64,000 nucleotides of DNA from an uncultured Candidatus Saccharibacteria bacterium (lineage in GTDB: Bacteria > Patescibacteriota > Minisyncoccia > Phycocordibacterales > Phycocordibacteraceae): assembly GCA_964607655.1 (NCBI GenBank), contig CAZSKX010000001.1, positions 6,314 to 70,313 on the forward strand, read 5' to 3'. Shown here in pieces: positions 11,072-58,378 of the stretch (within the stretch, counting starts at the first letter, position 1; each line of letters starts with the position of its first letter). The position numbers and the translations under genes were made by a program. The notes beneath the pieces are model-generated. The model made no database searches and was not told the DNA's origin. It was given only the letters and a program-made list of their open reading frames with translations.

Positions 11072-14000
11072 ATGGACGCGACCTCGCCGCATTCTCAGAA
11101 GCACGATACGGTGAAGCGCCAGCTACAAGGGGCGCTCTGGCTTCTGCTTGTTACGGTCGTGGCGACTACGGCGGGGGTGTGGATGAGTCTGAAGTATAGC
11201 GAGCTCGCACACTACGGCCGTAGTCAGCTGGCCGCAGTGGCGGCAGCGCCGGCGGGAACAGTTCCCCTTAGCGGCTGGGCCTGGTCGGGAGGAGACGGCA
11301 CCAAGGGCCCCTACATGGGCTGGATCAGTTTCAGTAGCGATAACGACCCCGCGGGCGCTCCCGTCTACGGCGTCTATGAGAATGTGAGCGACGGCCTGCT
11401 CTCAGGCTACGCCTGGTCAAGTAATCTCGGCTGGGTGAGCTTCAACGCAACAGATGTCGCCACCTGCCCCTCGGGTGGTTCTGCGCCCCGGGTCGATCTC
11501 TCCACTGGTAAAGTGAGCGGATGGGCGCGTGCGTGCTCGGCTTTTTCGGGATCGTATTGTAGCGGAACGCTCGATTCAAGGAGTGGTGGTTGGGACGGAT
11601 GTGTCAGTCTCGCCACCCAGAGTAATGAAACGGTCGCCTATGGAATCACGCAAGACCCGGCGACCTGTAATTGGAGCGGCTACGCCTGGGGGTCCACCGC
11701 GATCGGCTGGGTGAATGTTAACGGAGGTACTACATATGGCGTGAAGTGTGCCAAGCCTGATCTTAGGGCGCAGTATGTTGATCAGATCACAGCTCAAGCA
11801 GGTACGTCGCAGGACTTTACGACCACCGTTTCAAATATTGGAAGCCTTCCGGTCAATGCACCATTTTATAATCTGTTACAGCGCGCAGATACCATTGATG
11901 CAAGTGGTAACGGTATAAATCCACAAACGGCGAACGTGTCGAGTTTTGCCGGCCCTTTCCCAATTTCGGTTAATGGTACGGCAAAAGTTTCGGTACCGTA
12001 CGCTTTTAGCGTGCCTCAAGATGTGGGCACGGTCAGGTATGTCCGTATTTGTGTCGACCAGAATCAACCGGGAACAACTGGAGACATTGCTGAATTAAAC
12101 GAACAGAACAACTGCACGGCATGGAAGGGTATCCAAGTGGGTGGACCTAAGCCAAACCTCCGTGCCTGGGAAGTGACCCCTACGACTGCGAGCGTGGGTG
12201 TTGAGCAGACGTACTCGGCTAAGGTGTCAAACAACGGTGTGGCCGATGTGCCGAACCCATACTATGCTTTGTTCCAGCGCGTAGACGCAATTGACGCTAA
12301 CGGTAACGCCGTCGGGACGCCGCTCGACATTAACGTGCTCGGTATGCCGAGCGGGCTGAAGGTTTCGGCGACAACCACCGTCAATGTCGCCTATACTTTT
12401 CCTCAAGCCGATGCGGGAACTACTCGGTATCTCCGCGTGTGTGCGGATGCGAATTCAAACGCAGTTATTGGCGCACAGAACGACGTCCTCGAATCCTCAG
12501 AGACAGATAACTGTGGTGCGTGGACCGCGGTAGTGGTGGAAGGATCTAATCTCCAGGCAGACGCCATTGGTTACAATGGCGGTGCGCCGACTCCAACGGT
12601 CCCGACGGTATTTTTCGGATCAGTCAAAAATATCGGTACGGCAGGGATCAGTGGTGGTGTCCCGAGTATTCTGAGGATTAAGAGCGACGCTCTCGGATCA
12701 AGAGTCTATGCTCGACTCGATGCGGGAAGTATCCCGTCTATTGCTGCGGGAGCTACAAACGTATCGCTACCTAATAGCAATCTCTCCACCTTTAGCTTCG
12801 CGACCTCATCTACGGGGACGTACTATGCAGATGTTTGTGTGAACATGAACACCGGCGGGACCGTGCCGGTAAACACGGCTGAGCCGTATCCTCCTGCTGA
12901 CAACTGCGGCCAGAATCTGACCGTCGTCGTAAGAGCGCCAAACCTTACCGTCATTCCAGGTACGAGCTATACGGTCGTTATCGGGACCCCTCTTACGGTA
13001 TCTGCGTCTGTGAGAAATATAGGAGATCTAACAACAGGGCAGGGATTCACGGTCAACTTCCAGCGGGGTGATGGAGCTCTCGATGCGAATGGTAATCCTA
13101 CTGGCACCATCACGCCAAGTATCGGTACGGGCAGCGCGACGACCCTAGCGGCAGGAGCCACACAGACAGTGACGATGTCTACGACCTACAGCGGCTTTAC
13201 TACGGACGATGTTGGACAGCCACGTTGGATACGCGCCTGTGCTGATAAGTCGGCGACGATGGCAGATGGCCCCGTCAAAGAATTCGATGTGAAAGGTGCT
13301 GCCGAAGGCGACAATTGTGGTCCGTGGACCGCGGTGACGGTAGGAGGGCTGCCTGACGTGCAAGCGAACGCCGTAACCGCCTCGAAGACCAATCCAACGG
13401 TGAATGAAGCAGTGACGTTTAACACTACCGTAAGCAACCTCCCAACGGCGTCTGGGCCTGCAAACGACTTCCCGACCGTTATTCAAATTGCCAGCCCGAC
13501 TGATCCAGCCACTAATATAAGACGCATTGCCGCCAGTCCGGCCACCACGACGTCGCTTGCTGTGGGTGCTACGACCGGTACACTTTCCGCGAGCTTCGCC
13601 ACCAGCACTCCAGGGCAGTACCGGGTTCGTGCTTGTGCAAATATGTATCCTTCAGGGGCATTAGTGATCCCGGAGAGTAATACAGGCAACAACTGCAGTA
13701 CGTCGTGGGTGTTGATCACGGTGGATTCTGGGGTCGCTGCTCCTACAGTCATCAATCCGACCCATACCGCCATTACGACAACGGGTGCAACACTCGGTGC
13801 AACAGTCTCTTCAAATGGCGGCGCAGCACTCACCGCCAGAGGAACCTGCTGGAGCACGGCTATCAACCCGTCGCTAACTAACGGTGCCAATTGTCTTGCC
13901 GAGGGCGGTACGACAGTCTCAACATTCAGTCATGCACGCACGGGGCTCACTTCGGGAGCAACGATTCACTACCGTGGATACGCCACAAACGCAGTGGGTA

Positions 14001-15457
14001 CGGGTTACACAGCGGACACCGTTTTCTCGACTTCACTGCTTGGTATCACGGTCAGCCCTAAAGCATACTTCTCGCCAGTGTGGTCGCGCACCACTACGGT
14101 CACCTATACACTCACAAACGGCGATTCTGCCAACTCTGTCTGCCGCGCGCTTGATTATGCGAAGAAACCCCTGGGTACGGGTAGTTTCTTTGATTGTACG
14201 GGCGCACGCGCGATCGGATCCTCCTTTATACCGAATGCTATTGGCGAGTATGGATACTATATCCAGGCCTCATCAACCACTACGATGGCGCAACCGGTTG
14301 AGGACAGTCTCACGATCTTTACAACCTCGCCTTTCTTGACTGCAAACGGGCTCTCCGGTCTGCCGAGCACAGCGTCTTTGGGCAGTTCGATTGCTCTGAA
14401 TGGTAGTGTCAATAATGCGAGTACCACGATCCCGAATAACGTGGCCGATGCGTCAAATGTGCCAAGTGTATATCGAGTGAAAACATCGTCGGGCGGGACG
14501 CCTGTCGCATATATCGACGGTGGATCAAAGAATCTTCCAAAGGGTGCGACAGGAGCCTCTGCTGTGGCGCTCAGCGCGGGCTCATATACTCCGACTACCG
14601 CGGGCACCTACTACTTCGATGTCTGTGTCAACATGGGCACGGACACGGTGATACCAAAGGTTTCAGAGTCTAACGCGAGCGACAACTGTGGTCCGGAAAG
14701 TTCTGTCACGGTGGCAGGCACTTGTACTGTGGACGCAACCTGCACATCCGGAGCAAATAACTGTGGCACCACGGCAACGGGCCAATATAACGCAAGCTGC
14801 ATCTGTTCAGCCACCACACCGCCGGATGAAGCAACGTGCGACGGTGGAAGCCCGTCTATAACCTGTACGCGCAACCCTAACACTGCGTCCATAAGTGTAG
14901 GCACACCGGTTACCTTCGACGCAGGTCCGCAAGACGGAGCACAAGGGCCGTATATTTTCAAAAATGGAAGCACTCCTCTGTGTTCTACAACTGGTTCTGC
15001 CTCTTCCTGCCAATGGATCGCCACTGCGGGCAGCTATGACGTAAAGGCTGAGACCTCCTCGGCGAGCCCGACGCCAAACTTGGGCCCCATGCCTTGTGGC
15101 ACAATCTTTACTGTGGGCACCGCAGAAACAGCCCCAGTAATAACCTCCTTCACGGCCGATCCTCTTACGGGTGTTCGGTCAGGCTACACGACTACCCTTA
15201 ACTGGACCTCTAGTGACCCAGCGGCTGTATGTAAGATTGCTCGCTTGGCCGATGCTGCGAACAACGACTCATGGAAGACTGGCCTGCCAGCAAATGACAC
15301 CTCGACTGACGCGGTGACCACGACCGACACGGTTACCAGTGAGACCGTGTACACCCTCACTTGTACGAAGGGTAGTCTTACGAGCAGTGCGGAAGTGGTT
15401 GTTGCCGACGTCTTCCCGTGCTCCGTCGAGATAGGACTCGAATGCCCTGCGGAGTAG
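11072..15457 (+). CDS. Giant membrane-anchored surface protein (1461 aa) with ~7 CARDB-like repeats, an FN3/Ig-like region and a Cys-rich C-terminus
   Basis: N-terminal TM helix. Modules recur ending in the NNC(G/T)AW / NCGPW motif preceded by (T/R)RY(L/V)R(I/V)C(A/V)D. This is a single uninterrupted ORF. Confidence 0.65.
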   Translation: MDATSPHSQKHDTVKRQLQGALWLLLVTVVATTAGVWMSLKYSELAHYGRSQLAAVAAAPAGTVPLSGWAWSGGDGTKGPYMGWISFSSDNDPAGAPVYGVYENVSDGLLSGYAWSSNLGWVSFNATDVATCPSGGSAPRVDLSTGKVSGWARACSAFSGSYCSGTLDSRSGGWDGCVSLATQSNETVAYGITQDPATCNWSGYAWGSTAIGWVNVNGGTTYGVKCAKPDLRAQYVDQITAQAGTSQDFTTTVSNIGSLPVNAPFYNLLQRADTIDASGNGINPQTANVSSFAGPFPISVNGTAKVSVPYAFSVPQDVGTVRYVRICVDQNQPGTTGDIAELNEQNNCTAWKGIQVGGPKPNLRAWEVTPTTASVGVEQTYSAKVSNNGVADVPNPYYALFQRVDAIDANGNAVGTPLDINVLGMPSGLKVSATTTVNVAYTFPQADAGTTRYLRVCADANSNAVIGAQNDVLESSETDNCGAWTAVVVEGSNLQADAIGYNGGAPTPTVPTVFFGSVKNIGTAGISGGVPSILRIKSDALGSRVYARLDAGSIPSIAAGATNVSLPNSNLSTFSFATSSTGTYYADVCVNMNTGGTVPVNTAEPYPPADNCGQNLTVVVRAPNLTVIPGTSYTVVIGTPLTVSASVRNIGDLTTGQGFTVNFQRGDGALDANGNPTGTITPSIGTGSATTLAAGATQTVTMSTTYSGFTTDDVGQPRWIRACADKSATMADGPVKEFDVKGAAEGDNCGPWTAVTVGGLPDVQANAVTASKTNPTVNEAVTFNTTVSNLPTASGPANDFPTVIQIASPTDPATNIRRIAASPATTTSLAVGATTGTLSASFATSTPGQYRVRACANMYPSGALVIPESNTGNNCSTSWVLITVDSGVAAPTVINPTHTAITTTGATLGATVSSNGGAALTARGTCWSTAINPSLTNGANCLAEGGTTVSTFSHARTGLTSGATIHYRGYATNAVGTGYTADTVFSTSLLGITVSPKAYFSPVWSRTTTVTYTLTNGDSANSVCRALDYAKKPLGTGSFFDCTGARAIGSSFIPNAIGEYGYYIQASSTTTMAQPVEDSLTIFTTSPFLTANGLSGLPSTASLGSSIALNGSVNNASTTIPNNVADASNVPSVYRVKTSSGGTPVAYIDGGSKNLPKGATGASAVALSAGSYTPTTAGTYYFDVCVNMGTDTVIPKVSESNASDNCGPESSVTVAGTCTVDATCTSGANNCGTTATGQYNASCICSATTPPDEATCDGGSPSITCTRNPNTASISVGTPVTFDAGPQDGAQGPYIFKNGSTPLCSTTGSASSCQWIATAGSYDVKAETSSASPTPNLGPMPCGTIFTVGTAETAPVITSFTADPLTGVRSGYTTTLNWTSSDPAAVCKIARLADAANNDSWKTGLPANDTSTDAVTTTDTVTSETVYTLTCTKGSLTSSAEVVVADVFPCSVEIGLECPAE

Positions 15458-18652: not shown

Positions 18653-18728
18653 GCCGGGATAGCTCAGTTGGTAGAGCAGCTGTTTTGTAAACAGCAGGTC
18701 GTCGGTTCAAGCCCGACTCCCGGCTCCA
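18653..18728 (+). tRNA. tRNA-Thr (anticodon TGT), CCA encoded
   Basis: GCCGGGA acceptor stem, GCTC..GAGC D-stem, anticodon stem GCTGT/ACAGC with loop TTTGTAA, T-arm GTCGG-TTCAAGC-CCGAC, then TCCCGGC-T-CCA. Confidence 0.85.
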
Positions 18729-26830: not shown

Positions 26831-27571
26831 TTACTTGATGTCTAGGCTAAGCGTCAGGGTATTGTTGTCGAAGTTGACTTCAGAGACATTGCGTCCCTTG
26901 TTCACGATTACCGTGAATATTTTGTTGCTGCCGTTGTCTGCGCGATCGAAACCGAGAGTGAAGTCGACGCTGTCACCGGGTTTAAGCGAGCGCTGGCTGT
27001 CAGAAGTGTAGTTGCCGCCGTTGGTCGTAGGAAGGGTAGCGTTGAAATTCCATGTTCCGGTCCACATTGTGCCGACATTTTTTACGCTAAATTTTACCGC
27101 AGGGCGCTTACCGTCCGGTACCGTCGGGCTTACGATGAAGGAGTCTGTCGAGTTGCTGTTGAGGTAGCCGATAGCCATCGCAGACACCGCTAGATCCGGA
27201 TATCCGTAATAGGTAGGTGTTGTGGTAGCCCAGACGCGGTAGGTCGGCGCTGGTGCAGGGCGCTTTGGTGTTGTGGTTGCCGCAGGCTTGGCGACCGTGG
27301 TTGTGGCGGTGGTCGTCGCAGCCTCTGTCCCGAAGTCGATCGTAGCAGGTGTCGGCGGGGTGGTCGTAGCGATAGCCGGACCTTCGGCAGGTGAGAAGAT
27401 AGAGCCGACATAGACGGCGGCAGTGCCGAGCTTGCCCACGACATTAGGTACGTAGCGGCTTGAGTACACAGCGCCCCAGACGCCTATGGCGAGTAGGGCA
27501 ATAAAACCGACAATAGCAAGGCTATTAATGGCCGTTTGGCGGGTAGTTGGGGTAGGGTGTTGTGGCTCCAT
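26831..27571 (-). CDS. Membrane-anchored surface protein with a Thr/Pro-rich stalk and a C-terminal CARDB/Ig-like domain
   Basis: N-terminal TM helix, TTTPPTPAT...TTTATTTVAKPAATTTP linker, and VKFSVKNVGTMWTGTWNFNATLP...SLKPGDSVDFTLGF. Confidence 0.55.
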   Translation of the reverse strand: MEPQHPTPTTRQTAINSLAIVGFIALLAIGVWGAVYSSRYVPNVVGKLGTAAVYVGSIFSPAEGPAIATTTPPTPATIDFGTEAATTTATTTVAKPAATTTPKRPAPAPTYRVWATTTPTYYGYPDLAVSAMAIGYLNSNSTDSFIVSPTVPDGKRPAVKFSVKNVGTMWTGTWNFNATLPTTNGGNYTSDSQRSLKPGDSVDFTLGFDRADNGSNKIFTVIVNKGRNVSEVNFDNNTLTLSLDIK

Positions 27572-27633
27572 ATGACTCTATATACATACCACGGCTCGAT
27601 TTCATTGTCAAGTCCAGGGGGCTTGACAGAAAG

Positions 27634-27662
27634 AAAAGTTTGGTGTATTGATATAGAGGAGC
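27634..27662 (+). promoter_or_regulatory. Putative sigma70-like promoter for the sortase gene, adjacent to a 7-bp inverted repeat
   Basis: TTGACA-17 nt-TATTGA, then GAGGAG SD and ATG at 27665. The upstream inverted repeat is TGTCAAG...CTTGACA. Confidence 0.35.
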
Positions 27663-27664
27663 AT

Positions 27665-28366
27665 ATGGGGACATTAGTCGAATTCACCGCAGAGATGGTG
27701 CGGGCAGTGCGCCGCGCCTACGAAAAGAAGGGGACCTTCTTGGTGTTTTTTGCGTTGGTTTTCTGGGCTATGATCGTGTTTCTCGGCTGGCTTGACCTCT
27801 TGCCAAACGGGGTAGCGCTTACGAGCCCGAAGAGCTGGCTCGCCCTTTCGGCGGAGGATCTCAAGAAGTCGAGCGCGAGCGCTCTGGTAGCTACCACGAC
27901 GCTTGCGCCCGAGGTCGTCCAAGACCCGATCCGGATCGAGGCGAGTACGATCGGACTTAATGCCTTTATAACCAATGCAACGACGACGAATGTCGAGGCC
28001 CTTGATCGCCTTCTTCTGCAGGGAGCGGTACGCTACCCAACGTCGGCCAAGCTTGGCGAAGAAGGGAACCTGGTTCTCTTCGGCCACTCAAGCTACCTGC
28101 CGGTGGTGGGTAACCAAGCCTATAAGGCCTTTAACGATATCCAGAAGCTTAAGACGGGGGATACCGTCACGCTGTACTCATCAGGTAGGGAGTATACCTA
28201 TGCTGTGCGCAGCGTGACTCGGGAAAATGCTGAGAATAACAGTGCGATCGCGCTTGGTGTGTCGGGACGAGTGCTGACCCTTGTCACCTGTAATTCTTTT
28301 GGCAAAAAGAGTGACCGGTTCGTGGTCACCGCTGAGCTTGTTGAAAGTCACTCGATTGGAGCGTAA
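27665..28366 (+). CDS. Sortase (transpeptidase)
   Basis: N-terminal TM anchor, His motif LFGHSSY, catalytic TLVTC and a downstream conserved Arg (RFVVTAELVE). Confidence 0.85.
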   Translation: MGTLVEFTAEMVRAVRRAYEKKGTFLVFFALVFWAMIVFLGWLDLLPNGVALTSPKSWLALSAEDLKKSSASALVATTTLAPEVVQDPIRIEASTIGLNAFITNATTTNVEALDRLLLQGAVRYPTSAKLGEEGNLVLFGHSSYLPVVGNQAYKAFNDIQKLKTGDTVTLYSSGREYTYAVRSVTRENAENNSAIALGVSGRVLTLVTCNSFGKKSDRFVVTAELVESHSIGA

Positions 28367-28421: not shown

Positions 28422-31400
28422 ATGATCACCATTACACAAACCACCGCGTATTTCCGTGCACGACCGATCTTGGTCGGTCTCTTGACCGTACTTGTGACTA
28501 CAGGTATCGGCGCTTCGATCGCGATCTCTACGGGATTCGTTGATCCTTCGTCGGTGTTCGCGAGCGGCAACCCCACCTGCACCCTCGCTGTCGATGAAGT
28601 TGACGAAGCGGCGCTCGACTATGATGACGACGGCGAGTTGACCAGCGATGACGCGCAATATCTGCTCAGAGTAGCTGTCGGCTCGGAAACTTGTCCATCA
28701 GGGAAGATCTGTGACATCAATGGTGATGGCGTTGTGCGCACCGAAAATGAGGAGTCATCACTTGATGCACAGATGCTGCTCGTCTACGTGACAAACAAAC
28801 TCCCCACCTCAGGTCTATACACACTCTCGTGGACTTCGAACAACGCTACCGGCATGTCGATCGATAACGGCATTGGCGCGGTGATCCCCATCGTTCTCGG
28901 ACACGTAGGCGTTTCTCCAACAGAAACCACCACCTACACCGGCACCGCAACGGGTCCTGGTGGTAGCGGCACCTGTTCTGCAACCATCACCATCACCCCT
29001 CCAGGAGCTCCCGATCTCCAAGGTGGTTACATTAATGAGATTACTGCACGAGCGGGTACGCCCAAGGATTTCACTAGTACGATCACAAACGTTGGCACCG
29101 AGCCCGCGGTGAGTCTACTTGGTGACATTTATAATCGTTTTCAGATCACCGAGGGCCCTCTCGATTCAAACGGTGACACAACCACAGCGGTTACTGACAT
29201 TCCTAACGATGTTCCCGTCTCTGGACCACTAGCACCCGCAGCGCCCCAGACGGGCCCCGTAGTGACCAAAACATACACCTTCTCACCCTCAGACATTGGC
29301 TCGAGTGTGGTGGTCCGTTATATGCGGGTGTGTGCGGATTCACCCGACTCTGTGGTTGAATCTGATGAAGACAATAACTGTGGAGCCTGGAAGCCGATCC
29401 AGGTGGCACCAGCTGAAACTACAGCCTCTTCTGACCTCGTCGCTTCAGTTGTCTCTCCCACCACCGCAACTGCCGGTGTGGCAAAGACGTTCTCAGCAAC
29501 TATTTCAAACAACGGCGGCGCAGCAACAGGCGCTCCCTTCTACACCCTCGTCCAGCGCACCAACGCGGTTGACGCTGAGGGCAACGCCACGGGTTCGGTC
29601 ATCATGATCGACACCCTTGGCACCAACCCACTTTCAGCAGGGCAGAGCACGGTCAAGAGTGTCTCGTACACCTTCCCGTCAGCTGACAACGGTACCACCC
29701 GCTACCTTCGCTTCTGTGCCGACAAAACACAGCTCGGTCCTGCAGACGGTGACATCGAGGAGTCTGATGAGACCAACAACTGTGGTCCGTGGACGGCGAT
29801 TACGGTGGGGACACCTACCAATCCTGACCTCGTCGCTTCAGTTGTCTCTCCCACCACCGCAACTGCCGGTGTGGCAAAGACGTTCTCAGCAACTATTTCA
29901 AACAACGGCGGCGCAGCAACAGGCGCTCCCTTCTACACCCTCGTCCAGCGCACCAACGCGGTTGACGCTGAGGGCAACGCCACGGGTTCGGTCATCATGA
30001 TCGACACCCTTGGCACCAACCCACTTTCAGCAGGGCAGAGCACGGTCAAGAGTGTCTCGTACACCTTCCCGTCAGCTGACAACGGTACCACCCGCTACCT
30101 TCGCTTCTGTGCCGACAAAACACAGCTCGGTCCTGCAGACGGTGACATCGAGGAGTCTGATGAGACCAACAACTGTGGTCCGTGGACGGCGATTACGGTG
30201 GGGACACCTCCGGTAGCTACCTGTACCTACACGCAAGGGTATTGGAAGACACACAACGCCTCGTTTACAGGCGGCGCACCGGCTAACCCTACTTGGAACA
30301 GCGTCGGCACGCTCAAGGAGCAGACACCGTTTTATCAGAGCGACAATACCTGGTTTGGCGTGTTCTGGACGCAGCCAGCAGGCAATGCCTACTACACGCT
30401 CGCACACCAGTACATGGCAGCGAAGTTGAACGTCCTCCGTGGCGCACCGATGCCAAGCAACGTGACCACGGCCTTTAACACTGCCACGACACTCTTGTCG
30501 AGCACTGCACCCGACGGCAACACCTCAGGCGATCAGTGGACACAGCTTGCTGGTCTTCTCGGTAGCTACAACGAAGGGAATCAGGGTGTGCCGCACTGTA
30601 GCGAGCCACAGCCGCCACAGCCTGTCGCGCCAACCTGTACCCTCACGGTCACTCCAGGCTCGATCACTGCTGGCGGTAGCGCGACGCTCGCGTGGTCAAC
30701 CACGGGTGCTGCAGCATTCTCTATTAATCAAAACATCGGTGCGGTCTCTACGATCCCGGGCTCTCGATCAGTCTCGCCAAACGTGACGACGACCTACACC
30801 GGTACCGTAACGGGCCCAGGCGGCACCGCAAACTGTAACGTGACACTGACTGTTACGCCGACAGACAATCCGGCACCGACCTGCGCGCTGGTAGCGACGC
30901 CGGGGGCTATTGACTCGGGAGAGAGCTCATCGCTCACTTGGTCGACCACTCGCGCTACGTCGTTCTCTATTAATCAGGGCATCGGCGCGGTAGCTACGAC
31001 GAGCGGTACGCGCACGGTCTCACCGACCGCAACCACCACCTACACCGGTACCGTAACTGGTCCTGGGGGCACGGTAAATTGTGCGACGACGATCGATGTC
31101 GCTCCGCCACCACCACCTCCTGCACCGACCTGTACGCTTGCCGCGACACCAAGTCAGGTAGATTCAGGCGGACGCTCAGTCCTTTCATGGACCACGGCTA
31201 ACGGCGCAGCCTTCTCTATCAACCAGGGCATTGGTGGAGTGTCACCGCTCGCAGCGGGCACGACCTCCACTGCCGTCCTGACTCAAGACACGACCTTTAC
31301 GGGCACTATCACAAGCGCATCCGGACAGACGGCGACCTGTAGCACACAGGTGACGATCAAGACGGGCGGTGGTGGTGGTAACAATCCGACCTGTTCGCTT

Positions 31401-32558
31401 ACCGTCTCGCCATCGAGCTACCGAGAAGATTCAGGCGATTCCGCAACGCTCTCATGGAACGGTAGTAACGTAACGGCGGTAGATATCGATAATGGTATCG
31501 CGACAAACGCATCGATACCGGGCTCTGTCCGCGTGAATCCGTCTGGGGAGGGAACCTACACCTACAGGGGAACCTTCCGTGCGGCGAACGGAACGACCGT
31601 TAACTGTTCTGCAACGCTCGAAGTCACACGACGCTCGAGTGGCGGCAGCAGCCGAAGCAGCAGTGGCTCTCGTCCGAACCCGAGTGTACTCGTGAGCTCG
31701 GTCGCTCATGCAGGGCAGGTGGCCGGCGAGTACGTCTACCTCTCTCAGATGCCGTACACCGGTCTTGATCTCGGTCCAGCGGGCAGTCTCGTATACTGGG
31801 TCCTGCTTATCGGCTGGTCAGCGCTCCTCGCGTACATCGTGCTCTTCAATGGTGTGCCAGCATTGCGCCGATCCCTCATAGATTTCGGCGGTCAGGTACA
31901 GATGATCCTGAATACTCCAACCGCGGGTGGCGCCGCAGCTATGCCGCTCCCCAGCGTGCCAATGGCTCCGGTGATGCGTCAGACTATGACCGAACAAGAG
32001 GATACTCGCGGGTACTCAGCATATGAAGGCTTTAAGTCGTTCGCAAAGCAAGAGACACTCTCAATCGAGGACATCGTAAAGGGTCTTGCTCGCACGCATA
32101 AGATTCCGTCAGCTGCACCGCAGCCTGCGGCCATGCAAGCTCATACGGAGCCTATCTATGAAAATGTTGAGCCGATTGAAGCAGTCCCAGCACAGACCAT
32201 CACTGAGCATGTTGCAGAGGCCTCAGGCATCTCGACTGATGTCCGTGGATTTACCTACGCCCTCCTCGAGGGTGATCGTGAAGGAACGTTTGCAGGGCTT
32301 CGCCAATATGCGCGCGGGGGCGGTAAGCCGGAGACGCTCATCTCGCAGGCAGCCTTCCTGATCGACGACGCCTACCGAGCCCGTGTCGAGGGCGCCGAGT
32401 GTGATGCTGACATCGTGCGTCACGCAGCGCGTCTCTCAACGCCTCAGCTCGAGAAGCTTGTGATCTCACTTACGACGGCGATTGACTCAAGCTACTCAGC
32501 AGGGATCGCAGGGGCAAAGCTCGCCCTTACGCGCGCGCTCGCGGTTCTCGGCGCGTAA
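28422..32558 (+). CDS. Giant surface protein (1378 aa) with an N-terminal dockerin-like pair, CARDB-like modules, five ~75-aa Cys-bounded Ig-like repeats, an internal sorting-signal-like motif (MPYTG plus TM plus RR) and a ~230-aa C-terminal intracellular region
   Basis: Signal/TM N-terminus. Dockerin-like DYDDDGELTSDDAQYLL and DINGDGVV...LDAQMLL. NNCG(A/P)W module ends. Repeats CTLTVTPGS...TYTGTVTGPGGT.NC. Then LSQMPYTG-LDLGPAGSLVYWVLLIGWSALLAYIVLF-NGVPALRRS. Confidence 0.7.
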   Translation: MITITQTTAYFRARPILVGLLTVLVTTGIGASIAISTGFVDPSSVFASGNPTCTLAVDEVDEAALDYDDDGELTSDDAQYLLRVAVGSETCPSGKICDINGDGVVRTENEESSLDAQMLLVYVTNKLPTSGLYTLSWTSNNATGMSIDNGIGAVIPIVLGHVGVSPTETTTYTGTATGPGGSGTCSATITITPPGAPDLQGGYINEITARAGTPKDFTSTITNVGTEPAVSLLGDIYNRFQITEGPLDSNGDTTTAVTDIPNDVPVSGPLAPAAPQTGPVVTKTYTFSPSDIGSSVVVRYMRVCADSPDSVVESDEDNNCGAWKPIQVAPAETTASSDLVASVVSPTTATAGVAKTFSATISNNGGAATGAPFYTLVQRTNAVDAEGNATGSVIMIDTLGTNPLSAGQSTVKSVSYTFPSADNGTTRYLRFCADKTQLGPADGDIEESDETNNCGPWTAITVGTPTNPDLVASVVSPTTATAGVAKTFSATISNNGGAATGAPFYTLVQRTNAVDAEGNATGSVIMIDTLGTNPLSAGQSTVKSVSYTFPSADNGTTRYLRFCADKTQLGPADGDIEESDETNNCGPWTAITVGTPPVATCTYTQGYWKTHNASFTGGAPANPTWNSVGTLKEQTPFYQSDNTWFGVFWTQPAGNAYYTLAHQYMAAKLNVLRGAPMPSNVTTAFNTATTLLSSTAPDGNTSGDQWTQLAGLLGSYNEGNQGVPHCSEPQPPQPVAPTCTLTVTPGSITAGGSATLAWSTTGAAAFSINQNIGAVSTIPGSRSVSPNVTTTYTGTVTGPGGTANCNVTLTVTPTDNPAPTCALVATPGAIDSGESSSLTWSTTRATSFSINQGIGAVATTSGTRTVSPTATTTYTGTVTGPGGTVNCATTIDVAPPPPPPAPTCTLAATPSQVDSGGRSVLSWTTANGAAFSINQGIGGVSPLAAGTTSTAVLTQDTTFTGTITSASGQTATCSTQVTIKTGGGGGNNPTCSLTVSPSSYREDSGDSATLSWNGSNVTAVDIDNGIATNASIPGSVRVNPSGEGTYTYRGTFRAANGTTVNCSATLEVTRRSSGGSSRSSSGSRPNPSVLVSSVAHAGQVAGEYVYLSQMPYTGLDLGPAGSLVYWVLLIGWSALLAYIVLFNGVPALRRSLIDFGGQVQMILNTPTAGGAAAMPLPSVPMAPVMRQTMTEQEDTRGYSAYEGFKSFAKQETLSIEDIVKGLARTHKIPSAAPQPAAMQAHTEPIYENVEPIEAVPAQTITEHVAEASGISTDVRGFTYALLEGDREGTFAGLRQYARGGGKPETLISQAAFLIDDAYRARVEGAECDADIVRHAARLSTPQLEKLVISLTTAIDSSYSAGIAGAKLALTRALAVLGA
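29431..30209 (+). repeat. Perfect tandem duplication, 2 x ~386 bp with a 393-bp period (131 aa), inside the giant protein gene
   Basis: 29431–29816 and 29824–30209 read identically (CTGACCTCGTCGCTTCAGTTGTCTCTCCC...GATTACGGTGGGGACACCT). The translated ORF track also shows the duplication. Confidence 0.85.
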
Positions 32559-32756: not shown

Positions 32757-34499
32757 TTACGCGCGTGTACGGACTTCTTCAGCGACGCGGGCAACAAACT
32801 CAGCCATCGGCACCGCATCTTGCTTGCCGTGGTCGCGACTCTCGACCGTGACAGTCTTGGCTTCCATCTCTTTGTCGCCGACGACGAGCAGGTAGGGAAC
32901 CTTCGAGGTCTTGCCCTCGCGGATCTTCTTGCCGAGTGACTCGTTGCCGTCGTCGAGTGTGGCACGCACACCAGCAGTGGTGAGCGCGTCAGTAATCTCC
33001 TTCGCATACGCAGCATGTCTTTCAGAGACAGACAGGACTTTAACCGTAGTGGGCGAGAGCCAGGCAGGGAAGGTGCCCGCTACGTGCTCAATATAGACCG
33101 CGAGAAAGCGCTCAATCGAGCCCATGATTGCGGCGTGGATCATCACGATCCGTTCCTTCTCGCCCTGTTCGTTGGTGCAGGTGAGGTCGAAATTCTCTGG
33201 CTGGTTGAAGTCGAGCTGGATCGTCGCTACTTGGTGAGTTCGGCCGATCGCGTCTTGGGCGATGAAATCGATCTTAGGGCCATAGATCGCGGCCTCGCCC
33301 TTGCCGTCGATGTAGTCAGTGACGCCTCGCTTCTTTATCAGGTCGAGAATCGCCTGTTCGGCCTTCTCCCAGACACTCGCGTCGCCCAAGTATTTCTCAC
33401 GCTTCTCGGGGTCATGGCGAGAAAGGCGAGGGGTGAGGGTGAAGCCGAAGGTGCCGTAGAAGGTGTTGATAATGTCCCAGATGGCAAAGACTTCCTCTTC
33501 GATCTGGCTTTCGCGGCAGAAGACGTGTGCGTCGTCCTGAGTGATCGCGAGTACGCGGGTGAGGCCTGAGAGCTCGCCTGACTGCTCGTCGCGATAGACC
33601 ATCGTGGTCTCGGCGTAGCGTTGGGGCATGTCGCGGTAGCTCTTCGGCTCAGCATCGAAGATCTGTGCGTGGTGGGGGCAGTTCATCGGCTTCACTGCGT
33701 ACTCAGTACCTTCGCGCGTGTTGATGCGGAAGAGGTCCTCGGCGTACTTGCTCCAGTGGCCGCTCTTCTCATAAAGGTTTTTCTTGGTGAGGTGCGGGAT
33801 CGTCACCTTCTGGTAGCCACGTGCCTTTCGCAGCTCCCATACGAAGTCGTTGAGTGCTTCGCGCAAAAGGGTGCCTTTCGGGGTCCAGAGTGGTAGGCCA
33901 GGGCCTACGAGTTCTGAGAATATGAAGAGACCCGTCTCTTTACCAATTTTACGATGATCGCGCTTCTTTGCCTCTTCGCGTTGGGTCAAGTAAGCATCAA
34001 GCTCCTCCTTGGTATCGAAGGCGAGGCCGTAAATACGGGTGAGCATTGGTTTGGTCTCGTCTCCGCGCCAATAGGCGCCAGCGACACGATCGAGTTTGAA
34101 GGAGTCGGGAGCAATCTCGCTTGCGGGGCTCTCAGCGTGGCCGCCGCGACACAGGTCGGTGAAGCCCCCGCAGCTATAGAGTGTGATAGTCTCGCCGCGG
34201 GCCGCGATCTCTTCAATCAACTCCGCTTTATAGATATTGCCGGCAAAACGTTCAGTGACAGTATTTTTGTCTACTTCTTCGGCGGTGAATTCTTTCCATG
34301 CAGGAAGGTGCTTGCGCATGCTCTTCTCAATTTTTGGTAGATCTGTGTCTGAGATCTTTTCAGTACCAAAATCGACATCATAGTAGAACCCATTATCAAT
34401 AGCGGGGCCGAGCGTGAGTTTGGCGTCCGGATGCTGTTCAATCACTGCCTGTGCGAGCAGGTGGGCGAGGGTGTGGCGCTTGTGTTCAAGAGACGTCAT
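32757..34499 (-). CDS. thrS: Threonine--tRNA ligase (short form lacking the N-terminal TGS domain)
   Basis: The N-terminus begins at the HxxxH editing-domain motif (KRHTLAHLLAQAV). 580 aa. Confidence 0.85.
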   Translation of the reverse strand: MTSLEHKRHTLAHLLAQAVIEQHPDAKLTLGPAIDNGFYYDVDFGTEKISDTDLPKIEKSMRKHLPAWKEFTAEEVDKNTVTERFAGNIYKAELIEEIAARGETITLYSCGGFTDLCRGGHAESPASEIAPDSFKLDRVAGAYWRGDETKPMLTRIYGLAFDTKEELDAYLTQREEAKKRDHRKIGKETGLFIFSELVGPGLPLWTPKGTLLREALNDFVWELRKARGYQKVTIPHLTKKNLYEKSGHWSKYAEDLFRINTREGTEYAVKPMNCPHHAQIFDAEPKSYRDMPQRYAETTMVYRDEQSGELSGLTRVLAITQDDAHVFCRESQIEEEVFAIWDIINTFYGTFGFTLTPRLSRHDPEKREKYLGDASVWEKAEQAILDLIKKRGVTDYIDGKGEAAIYGPKIDFIAQDAIGRTHQVATIQLDFNQPENFDLTCTNEQGEKERIVMIHAAIMGSIERFLAVYIEHVAGTFPAWLSPTTVKVLSVSERHAAYAKEITDALTTAGVRATLDDGNESLGKKIREGKTSKVPYLLVVGDKEMEAKTVTVESRDHGKQDAVPMAEFVARVAEEVRTRA

Positions 34500-56745: not shown

Positions 56746-56765
56746 AGTATTTAAAAGGGAATAGA

Positions 56766-56803
56766 AAAACGGCGGGGACCCCGAGGGGTTCCCGCCGTTT
56801 TGA
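56766..56803. terminator. Bidirectional palindromic terminator (copy A of a repeated element)
   Basis: AAAACGGCGGGGACC-CCGAG-GGGTTCCCGCCGTTTT. An identical sequence occurs at 58032. Confidence 0.7.
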
Positions 56804-57009: not shown

Positions 57010-57084
57010 AGAACTTCCTCCTAAAGAACGGATTTGCCAGGGCGTGCGAATACTATGGCATATATGGATTGGGCTGGCAAGCTG

Positions 57085-57122
57085 CCTCGGAAAATGCCGA
57101 GAATAGGCTAAAATTGAGGTGA
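57085..57122. repeat. 38-nt repeat element, copy A (CTCGGAAAATGCCGAGAATAGGCTAAAATTGAGGTGAT)
   Basis: The second copy at 58341–58378 has one mismatch. Each copy contains a small hairpin CTCGG-AAAAT-GCCGAG and lies upstream of both a + strand gene (hicB / dnaG) and a - strand small membrane-protein gene. Confidence 0.6.
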
Positions 57123-57159
57123 TATACATCGATATGAGCCAATATGCTATACTGCGCCG

Positions 57160-57938: not shown

Positions 57939-58031
57939 AAGTTTGAGCAAGGGGAACCCTTGCTCAGTCGTGAGTCGCGCACGCCTGCGATGCGCCCAGC
58001 ACGGACGTTCTAGAGTTTTACAGAAATAAGA

Positions 58032-58066
58032 AAAACGGCGGGGACCCCGAGGGGTTCCCGCCGTTT
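58032..58066. terminator. Palindromic terminator, copy B (identical to 56766–56803)
   Basis: AAAACGGCGGGGACCCCGAGGGGTTCCCGCCGTTT. Confidence 0.65.
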
Positions 58067-58250: not shown

Positions 58251-58340
58251 ACGAGCCTCCAAAGTCCTGATTTGAGTCGCCCCGACAATCGGGCGCTCAT
58301 CAAAATAGGATAGCACGCATGAGTACAAAAGTCAAGCTCC

Positions 58341-58378
58341 CTCGGAAAATGCTGAGAATAGGCTAAAATTGAGGTGAT
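58341..58378. repeat. 38-nt repeat element, copy B. It abuts the dnaG start.
   Basis: CTCGGAAAATGCTGAGAATAGGCTAAAATTGAGGTGAT. The ATG of dnaG follows directly. Confidence 0.6.

What the first reader, a model, noticed from the sequence alone, without database searches (positions are those of the whole stretch)
29431..30209. Perfect 393-bp tandem duplication inside the giant adhesin gene
Two head-to-tail copies, 29431–29816 and 29824–30209, read 100% identical. Each encodes a complete 131-aa CARDB-like module (LVASVVSPTTATAGVAKTFSATISNNGG...NNCGPWTAITVGTP). Other modules in the same protein are strongly diverged. Perfect identity therefore implies a very recent duplication, ongoing recombination-driven module-number variation (size-variable surface antigen), or an assembly artefact.
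Basis: sequence.
Basis: seen in the sequence. Interest (0 to 1): 0.6.

Follow-up and report, generated by a model that had tools for sequence, protein, structure and literature searches.

The report
Freshly doubled domain in surface protein
One 128-residue Ig-like (CARDB) domain of a cell-surface protein from an uncultivated ultra-small (Patescibacteria) bacterium is present as two perfectly identical neighbouring copies where relatives have one; this looks real and recent, but it is an ordinary way for bacterial surface proteins to evolve.

Summary
Window 29431-29816 and 29824-30209 are 386 nt each and 100% identical, with a period of 393 nt (131 codons, in frame). The identical part is 386 nt, not 393: a 7-nt spacer (ACCAATC) matches neither flank. 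The gene (28422-32558, 1378 aa) is large, not giant. It lies between a sortase gene and thrS in a Paceibacterota (Kaiserbacteria-like) genome.

Each copy is one complete CARDB beta-sandwich domain. The spacer completes a canonical Pro-ending linker (TNP). Two syntenic orthologues from metagenomes carry one module at this position. More distant relatives carry none, and a third module here (M1) is only 34% identical.

There are no differences over about 100 synonymous sites, against dS 0.76 to the nearest full orthologue. The event is therefore very recent. An in-frame, domain-precise junction with a proper linker argues against a false assembly duplication. Collapse of more than two copies, or of near-identical copies, cannot be excluded without reads.

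The spacer rules out a simple one-step duplication followed by clock-like decay. I favour recombinational homogenisation between module copies, in a gene whose N-terminal half is reshuffled among relatives. The closest known kind is the "Periscope" surface proteins, but strain-level variation is untested. Interest is modest.

The parts
28422..32558 (+). Gene for a 1378-aa modular surface protein. Order of parts: N-terminal hydrophobic anchor or signal, dockerin-like Ca-binding motifs, Ig-like domain, three CARDB modules, QGYWKTHN domain, four Cys-bracketed Ig-like repeats, Gly/Ser linker, PYTG motif plus TM helix, and a tail of about 230 aa.
   Evidence: ORF list and translation. Pfam finds CARDB only. 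Hydropathy. The dockerin-like and Ig-like labels are my reading of the sequence, not a tool result. A 100% identical protein, P0001, is on an NCBI contig of 464,554 bp.
29431..29816 (+). Copy 1 of the identical repeat. It is CARDB module M2 (aa 338-465) plus the 2 nt before its first codon.
   Evidence: The AlphaFold2 model of M2-linker-M3 shows a beta-sandwich (pLDDT 87).
29817..29823 (+). 7-nt spacer ACCAATC. With the next 2 nt it encodes the linker T-N-P. It is not identical to either outer flank.
   Evidence: The linker resembles the x-K-P linker that precedes this module in the relatives (SKP, AKP, HKP) and in the paralogue (AKP, PKP).
29824..30209 (+). Copy 2 of the identical repeat. It is CARDB module M3 (aa 469-596) and sits in the ancestral position directly before the QGYWKTHN domain.
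   Evidence: Orthologues L036 and L037 have their single local module directly before PVATCTYTQGYWKTHN / TPVAGCTYTQGYWKTHN.
29013..29411 (+). M1, a deeply diverged CARDB module. It is 34% identical (aa) to M2/M3 and absent from all relatives examined. Its tail APAETTASS forms the upstream flank of copy 1.
   Evidence: best outside match 43%. It is absent in L036, L037 and L054.
30210..30626 (+). Domain of about 139 aa beginning PVATCTYTQGYWKTHN. It is the downstream flank of copy 2 and has no Pfam match.
   Evidence: Homologous stretches occur in many phyla. It is conserved in L036 and L037.
31731..31865 (+). Conserved motif YVYLSQMPYTGLDLGP followed by the only C-terminal transmembrane helix. 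This is the presumed anchoring or sorting region.
   Evidence: It is conserved in L036, L037, L057 and L058.
28464..28535 (+). N-terminal hydrophobic segment (signal anchor or signal peptide).
   Evidence: Hydropathy scan. Conserved in L054, L057 and L058.
27536..28366 (+). Sortase-family gene immediately upstream. This pairing is conserved in all relatives.
   Evidence: Pfam Sortase 4e-21. NCBIfam sortase models match below their cut-offs. Synteny in L051, L054-L058 and L061.

Best explanation
The two copies are real. One complete CARDB (Ig-like beta-sandwich) domain of the extracellular part of a sortase-locus surface protein is present twice in tandem, in frame, joined by a normal three-residue Pro-ending linker. 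The host is a Paceibacterota (Kaiserbacteria-like, CPR) bacterium.

The perfect identity reflects a very recent recombination event between module copies. I commit to homogenisation as the most likely mechanism: gene conversion or unequal crossing-over between two modules that were already tandem, that is, concerted evolution. A brand-new duplication is the second choice.

The event sits in a gene whose N-terminal half is a mosaic that is reshuffled among related lineages.

The inferred consequences are two. The ectodomain gains one more domain of about 128 aa, giving a longer reach or one more binding unit. The gene also now holds a 386-bp perfect direct repeat, a substrate for further gain or loss of modules by RecA-dependent recombination or replication slippage.

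Shown: the identity, reading frame, domain boundaries, one copy at this position in the orthologues, purifying selection, and recency. Inferred: the mechanism, surface exposure, and any role in attachment.
For: - Identity and frame: 386/386 nt, period 393 = 131 codons.
- Domain-precise: each copy is one Pfam CARDB domain. AlphaFold2 on a 12-sequence alignment gives two separate beta-sandwiches, pLDDT 87.
- The junction encodes T-N-P, close to the x-K-P linker that precedes this module type elsewhere.
- Syntenic orthologues L036 (module 90% aa identical) and L037 (80%) have a single module directly before the QGYWKTHN domain, and no M1.
- Kaiserbacteria-like relatives keep the same sortase / surface protein / thrS / dnaE slot but have no CARDB at all.
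- Recency: 0 differences over about 100 synonymous sites (dS below about 0.03), against dS 0.76 to L036.
- The module is functional, not decaying: dN/dS is 0.11-0.16.
- The pair is an outlier. In 34 homologous multi-CARDB proteins, 339 within-protein module pairs have median 48% and maximum 79% aa identity.
- Against plain one-step duplication and for homogenisation: the spacer mismatches both flanks (4/7 against 0/386, p = 3.6e-8).
- In relatives the module also occurs in two contexts with identical sequence. L037 has 117 nt at 100% followed by different downstream sequence. L051 and L036 share 107 nt exactly after different upstream sequence. The contig of the closest relative, L054, stops 24 nt into the module.
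Against: - No reads are available, so copy number (2 or more) and exact identity rest on one assembly.
- The relatives compared are other species, so within-species copy-number variation is not demonstrated.
- Homogenisation requires an older tandem pair, yet every relative examined has only one module at this position. That fits a new duplication in this lineage equally well.
- The 'two contexts' seen in relatives could be mixtures of strains in the metagenomes rather than two copies in one gene.
- Short-read assemblies break on identical repeats, so the background set (maximum 79%) is biased against finding such cases.
Confidence: 0.5

Rival explanations
1. A brand-new duplication in this lineage. 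A single ancestral module was copied once, very recently. The junction was either imprecise (7 nt of filler that happens to keep the frame), or the duplicated 393-nt unit included an ancestral T-N-P linker and the upstream flank of copy 1 was later replaced when M1 arrived.
For: All relatives examined have one module at this position. There is zero divergence between the copies. The spacer plus CT encodes T-N-P, one nucleotide from the x-K-P linker (AAT against AAG) that precedes the single module in orthologues. This fits a duplicated unit of linker plus module.
Against: It needs either a lucky in-frame filler or a second rare event (arrival of M1 with a breakpoint exactly at the module start) within the same very short time, dS below 0.03. 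It does not explain why the module also shows identical sequence in two contexts in L037 and in L051/L036.
Confidence: 0.3
2. The assembly misrepresents the locus. Either a longer array (three or more copies) was collapsed to the minimal two-copy path, or two near-identical copies were made identical by bubble-popping or consensus.
For: The repeat (779 nt in all) exceeds typical short-read lengths and k-mers. The two-copy path is the shortest one that uses the left flank, the junction and the right flank (inference from how de Bruijn graph assemblers work; no tool result). Contigs of relatives break at this module.
Against: Nothing in the sequence speaks against it. It changes the number or exactness of copies, not the existence of a near-identical tandem array, because the junction sequence can only exist if one module follows another.
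Confidence: 0.12
3. False duplication: only one copy exists, and the second was created by mis-joining, scaffolding or gap-filling.
For: Perfect identity is what an artefact would give. The protein is a singleton in the database, so there is no independent assembly.
Against: Overlap artefacts duplicate arbitrary stretches without a spacer. Here the period is exactly 131 codons. The boundaries coincide with a folded domain. The 7-nt spacer is unique sequence that completes a canonical Pro-ending inter-module linker. The reading frame stays open for 1378 codons.
Confidence: 0.05

Closest known systems
Periscope Proteins: variable-length bacterial surface proteins with highly identical tandem domain repeats (SasG/Aap, Rib/alpha C, Sgo_0707 SHIRT, Esp, CdrA). 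Sources: PMC8201768, PMC9704523.
   Same: Single-chain predicted surface protein. Tandem folded domains of more than 50 residues with very high DNA identity. Ig-like beta-sandwich fold. A short Pro-containing linker. Copy number differs from relatives. Identical adjacent domains break the usual rule that neighbouring domains diverge.
   Different: Only two identical copies, not an array. No comparison between closely related strains. Rod-like geometry was not tested. The modules lie in the membrane-distal half, between other domains, rather than forming the whole stalk. The anchor is non-canonical (PYTG plus TM plus a long tail). The host is a CPR bacterium. CARDB does not occur in the main text of PMC8201768.
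Multi-CARDB (PF07705) surface proteins of Patescibacteria and other bacteria, including the paralogue in this window (11072-15457).
   Same: The same domain family, with the same Cys pair (RxCAD ... NNCG) and the same P-[DN]-L module start. Modules are in tandem with 3-6 residue linkers.
   Different: In those proteins the modules are diverged: median 48% and maximum 79% aa identity within a protein across 339 pairs. The paralogue's modules are 41-50% identical to M2. Here two modules are 100% identical at the DNA level.
Hypervariable repeat gene of a Gracilibacteria (BD1-5) genome (PMC6851277).
   Same: A CPR bacterium, a predicted extracellular protein with an N-terminal TM segment, and a repeat region that disturbs assembly and is thought to be under pressure to vary.
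   Different: That case is a short 9-nt (Pro-Thr-Asp) repeat with nucleotide hypervariation and a conserved peptide. This case is a 393-nt domain-sized unit with no nucleotide variation at all.

Membership tests
CARDB domain (Pfam PF07705) | Score above the Pfam gathering threshold | tested here: met
   68.2 bits against a cut-off of 22.7, three stretches, best at aa 467-585.
CARDB domain (Pfam PF07705) | Ig-like beta-sandwich fold for each repeat unit | tested here: met
   The AlphaFold2 model of aa 335-600 has two all-beta domains with 7-8 strands each, mean pLDDT 87. Foldseek matches only tandem Ig-like sandwiches such as transglutaminase C-terminal domains and integrin calf domains.
Periscope Proteins | Tandem repeats of more than 50 residues with very high identity at the DNA level | tested here: met
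   Two copies of 128 aa plus a 3-aa linker, 386/386 nt identical. This is the minimal array of two.
Periscope Proteins | Repeat number varies between closely related strains | tested here: inconclusive
   Orthologues L036 and L037 have one copy at this position, but they are only about 76-82% identical in nucleotides in the module. The closest relative, L054 (85% nt), ends 24 nt into the module. No same-species genome was found.
Periscope Proteins | Cell-surface attached single-chain protein | tested here: inconclusive
   There is an N-terminal hydrophobic segment and a C-terminal TM helix, and an adjacent sortase gene. No localisation experiment or dedicated predictor was available.
Periscope Proteins | Repeats form an extended rod that projects a distal functional domain | not tested
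   The model shows two separate domains, but pTM is 0.64, so the inter-domain geometry is not reliable. The function of the distal domains is unknown.
Canonical sortase substrate (LPXTG cell-wall sorting signal) | LPXTG pentapeptide | tested here: not met
   The motif is MPYTG (VYLSQMPYTGLDLGP). Relatives have VPYTG, IPYTG or TPYTG.
Canonical sortase substrate (LPXTG cell-wall sorting signal) | Hydrophobic segment followed by a short positively charged C-terminal tail | tested here: not met
   A TM helix is present at about aa 1120-1148, but it is followed by a conserved domain of about 230 aa.

The most novel reading that the evidence does not exclude
The CARDB module may be kept identical between its copies by frequent intragenic recombination, in several related Paceibacterota lineages. 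That would make this conserved sortase-locus protein a copy-number-variable, domain-shuffling ('Periscope'-like) attachment protein of an uncultivated CPR episymbiont. I found no described case in Patescibacteria in the papers searched, and such a protein could be a candidate determinant of host or substrate specificity.
Probability: 0.2. Interest if true: 0.55.

Novelty: new member of a known kind. Interest (0 to 1): 0.3.

Why it matters
If real and variable, the locus would be a simple PCR-sized or long-read marker of strain-level surface variation in a group of bacteria that cannot be cultured. In this group almost nothing is known about how cells attach to partners.

It also flags a conserved gene slot (sortase, then a surface protein with exchangeable ectodomain modules, then thrS) in Kaiserbacteria-like genomes. 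That slot may hold the lineage's main contact protein.

On its own, a two-copy identical domain repeat in a bacterial surface protein is an expected outcome of recombination. It does not open a new question.

Tried and rejected
- Exact look-up of the protein on contigs found nothing. The cluster listing gave no accession or name.
- The genome-contig scan did not find the source genome or any close relative. It returned only the QGYWKTHN domain in unrelated phyla.
- A protein search with the 128-aa module alone returned nothing. This is probably a limit of the word index for short queries.
- Literature searches (CARDB + Patescibacteria, CARDB + tandem repeats + adhesin, sortase + LPXTG + Patescibacteria, Kaiserbacteria + surface protein) gave nothing relevant.
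- Rfam and tRNA scans found nothing in or near the repeat; the only hit is tRNA-Thr at 18653.
- Other reading frames and the opposite strand hold only short mechanical ORFs, so there is no hidden gene or mobile element in the repeat.
- I considered a diversity-generating-retroelement template/variable pair and dropped it without a test. Such pairs differ at adenines and are not tandem domain copies, whereas these copies are identical.
- I considered foreign origin of the module and rejected it. GC is 59% in the module against 58% in the gene, and the module is orthologous in relatives.
- I considered slippage between microhomologies at the module ends. It would give a period of about 384-385 nt, not 393 with 7 unmatched nt (sequence reading).
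- The fold search gave only generic Ig-like matches and no functional lead.

Full report
**1. The observation**

Window 29431-29816 and 29824-30209 are identical at all 386 positions. Tandem Repeats Finder gives period 393, 2.0 copies, 100% matches and score 1558. It is the only repeat of 150 nt or more in the 64-kb window.

The period is 131 codons and the frame stays open.

One correction matters. The identity covers 386 nt, not 393. The 7 nt between the copies (ACCAATC, 29817-29823) match neither the 7 nt before copy 1 (GCCTCTT, 3 of 7 identical) nor the 7 nt after copy 2 (CCGGTAG, 1 of 7).

**2. The gene and the organism**

The repeat lies in ORF 28422-32558 (1378 aa), which is large rather than giant. 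Pfam recognises only CARDB, three times.

Reading the translation, with hydropathy, the protein has these parts in order:
- an N-terminal hydrophobic segment
- two dockerin-like acidic motifs
- a Cys-bracketed Ig-like domain
- CARDB module M1 (aa 198-330)
- the identical modules M2 (aa 338-465) and M3 (aa 469-596)
- a domain of about 139 aa starting PVATCTYTQGYWKTHN, with no Pfam match
- four Cys-bracketed Ig-like repeats
- a Gly/Ser stretch
- the motif VYLSQMPYTGLDLGP and one TM helix
- a tail of about 230 aa

The dockerin-like and Ig-like labels are my reading of the sequence, not tool results.

The neighbouring genes are gyrB, a sortase-family gene directly upstream, and thrS and dnaE downstream on the other strand.

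The identical protein is a singleton on an NCBI contig of 464,554 bp. GyrB is 96% identical to one unnamed Logan protein, 91% to a 'Candidatus Paceibacterota' protein and 87% to a 'Candidatus Kaiserbacteria' protein. The organism is therefore a Parcubacteria/Paceibacterota (CPR) bacterium.

**3. Unit boundaries**

Each copy runs from the D-L that starts this module type to V-G-T-P at its end. An AlphaFold2 model of aa 335-600, built on 12 tandem-module sequences, gives two separate beta-sandwiches (mean pLDDT 87, pTM 0.64). Solved-structure matches are generic tandem Ig-like sandwiches.

The spacer plus the next two bases encodes T-N-P. In relatives and in the paralogue the same module type is preceded by x-K-P (SKP, AKP, HKP, AKP, PKP). 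The junction is therefore a normal inter-module linker. In contrast, copy 1 is preceded by the atypical tail of M1 (APAETTASS).

**4. Relatives**

A metagenome scan with the module found two syntenic orthologues, both with thrS and dnaE downstream:
- L036: module 90% aa identical, gene about 79% nt identical.
- L037: module 80% aa identical.

Both have one module directly between an Ig-like domain and the QGYWKTHN domain, and no M1.

Through GyrB I reached a closer relative, L054 (about 85% nt identity over 13 kb). Its gene matches the window up to the first Ig-like domain. It then has a different Ig-like domain instead of M1, then SKP-DLTASVVS, and the contig ends 24 nt into the module.

Kaiserbacteria-like relatives (L057, L058/L059, L061) keep the same slot of sortase, surface protein, thrS. 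In L057 and L058/L059 dnaE also follows. Their proteins of 687-933 aa share the N-terminal anchor, the Ig-like repeats, the PYTG motif, the TM helix and the C-terminal tail. They have no CARDB module and no QGYWKTHN domain.

The ectodomain of this locus is therefore a mosaic, and the CARDB module is a lineage-specific insert whose number and context vary.

**5. The module occurs in two contexts in relatives too**

- Contig L037 begins with 117 nt that are 100% identical to the end of its own module (835-951). That stretch continues into a different sequence (TVQAPAPTC..., the dockerin-like region) instead of the QGYWKTHN domain.
- L051 comes from the same metagenome as L036. It carries the sortase gene and a different N-terminus that runs into the module start. 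Its last 107 nt are found exactly in L036.

These contigs therefore break at or inside a 384-nt module: L054 ends in it, L051 ends in it and L037 starts in it. This is what identical intragenic copies would cause, but strain mixtures would cause it as well.

**6. Age and selection**

| Comparison with the window | dS | dN/dS |
|---|---|---|
| Module, L036 | 0.76 | 0.11 |
| Module, L037 | 0.95 | 0.16 |
| Rest of the gene | not summarised | 0.09-0.14 |

The domain is under purifying selection.

Between M2 and M3 there are 0 differences over about 100 synonymous sites. This puts dS below about 0.03 (95% bound). The event is younger than about 4% of the divergence from L036.

In 34 homologous multi-CARDB proteins, 339 within-protein module pairs have median 48% and maximum 79% aa identity. 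M1 is 34% identical to M2. The identical pair is a clear outlier. One caveat applies: short-read assemblies tend to break on identical repeats, which biases this background.

**7. Mechanism**

A one-step duplication of a contiguous 393-nt block would leave 393 periodic identities. Here the identity stops abruptly on both sides. The contrast of 4 mismatches in 7 nt against 0 in 386 nt cannot be clock-like decay (Fisher p = 3.6e-8). Three histories remain:

(a) Two modules were already tandem, separated by the TNP linker, and were recently homogenised by gene conversion or unequal crossing-over. The identity then ends where homology ends.

(b) A new duplication of linker plus module was followed by replacement of the upstream flank when M1 arrived.

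(c) A new duplication occurred with 7 nt of filler.

I prefer (a). It needs one recent event. It would also explain identical module sequence in two contexts in other lineages (section 5). However, the relatives' single copy at this position fits (b) or (c) just as well.

Whichever history is right, the present 386-bp perfect direct repeat is a known substrate for RecA-dependent and slippage-type deletion and expansion. That statement rests on my own knowledge of tandem-repeat instability in bacteria. PMC8201768 proposes the same mechanism for identical surface-protein repeats.

**8. Artefact?**

A false duplication from mis-joined overlaps would not be expected to produce all of the following:
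- a period of exactly 131 codons
- boundaries that fall on a folded domain
- a unique 7-nt spacer that completes a canonical linker

The junction sequence can only exist if one module follows another.

What cannot be excluded without reads is the opposite kind of error. Three or more copies may have been collapsed to the minimal two-copy path. Alternatively, a few real differences between the copies may have been erased by consensus.

**9. What it does, and comparison with known systems**

By inference, the protein is exposed on the cell surface and the doubling adds one Ig-like domain, giving more reach or one more binding unit.

The closest described kind is the Periscope Proteins (PMC8201768, PMC9704523). 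These are single-chain surface proteins whose highly identical tandem domains vary in number through recombination.

Features met here:
- high DNA identity between repeats
- domain-sized repeats
- a beta-sandwich fold
- a short linker

Features not established:
- variation among close strains
- rod geometry
- surface attachment

The C-terminal signal is not a canonical LPXTG sorting signal. The motif is PYTG, and about 230 aa follow the TM helix. The finding therefore works like a nascent or minimal Periscope-type array, but membership is unproven.

**10. Verdict**

This is a real, recent, domain-precise doubling in a modular surface protein of a CPR bacterium. It is a new member of a known kind. 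The interest is modest. The locus would become more interesting only if reads or close strains show ongoing copy-number change.

Noticed in passing
window 11072-15457 (+): A second large predicted surface protein (1461 aa) with at least three, probably six, diverged CARDB-like modules. They are 41-50% aa identical to the duplicated module, closer than M1 in the same gene as the repeat.
   Followed up: partly
window 31731-32558 (+); L057 6261-8519; L058 14855-17656: The motif Y[IV]YLS[QE]xPYTGL[DE]LGP, one TM helix and a tail of about 230 aa are conserved across Kaiserbacteria-like relatives, always beside a sortase gene. This is not a canonical LPXTG sorting signal, and the tail has no Pfam or NCBIfam match.
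   Followed up: partly
window 30210-30626 (+): A domain of about 139 aa beginning PVATCTYTQGYWKTHN has no Pfam match. It has 35-57% identical counterparts in Gemmatimonadota, Chloroflexia, Rhodothermales, Acidimicrobiia, Saccharibacteria and others.
   Followed up: no
window 32757-34499 (-) compared with 28422-32558 (+): The housekeeping gene thrS is more diverged from the relatives (60-68% aa identity, dN 0.24-0.31) than the adjacent surface-protein gene is from L036 (dN about 0.09). This is the reverse of the usual expectation. It may mean that the surface gene, or thrS, was exchanged between lineages.
   Followed up: no
window 56750-56800 / 58016-58066 and 57078-57123 / 58333-58378: Two short repeat pairs lie about 1.26 kb apart between rpoC and dnaG. 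One is a GC-rich hairpin followed by a T run, which looks like a terminator (88% identical). The other contains TAGGCTAAAAT ... GAGGTGAT, which looks like a promoter plus ribosome-binding site (96% identical).
   Followed up: no
L037 1-117; L051 1373-1479; L054 13605-13628: Contigs of three relatives start or stop inside the same CARDB module. The stretches of 117 and 107 nt are exactly identical to another context of the module. This hints that the module is repeated, or shared between co-occurring strains, in those samples too.
   Followed up: partly
L055 13752-14750; L056 13397-14365; L057 5283-6236; L058 13747-14754: More distant relatives carry an extra gene for a Cys-rich secreted protein of about 320-335 aa, with no Pfam match, directly after the sortase gene. 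In L057 and L058 the surface-protein gene follows it. This extra gene is absent from the window, L051, L054 and L061.
   Followed up: no
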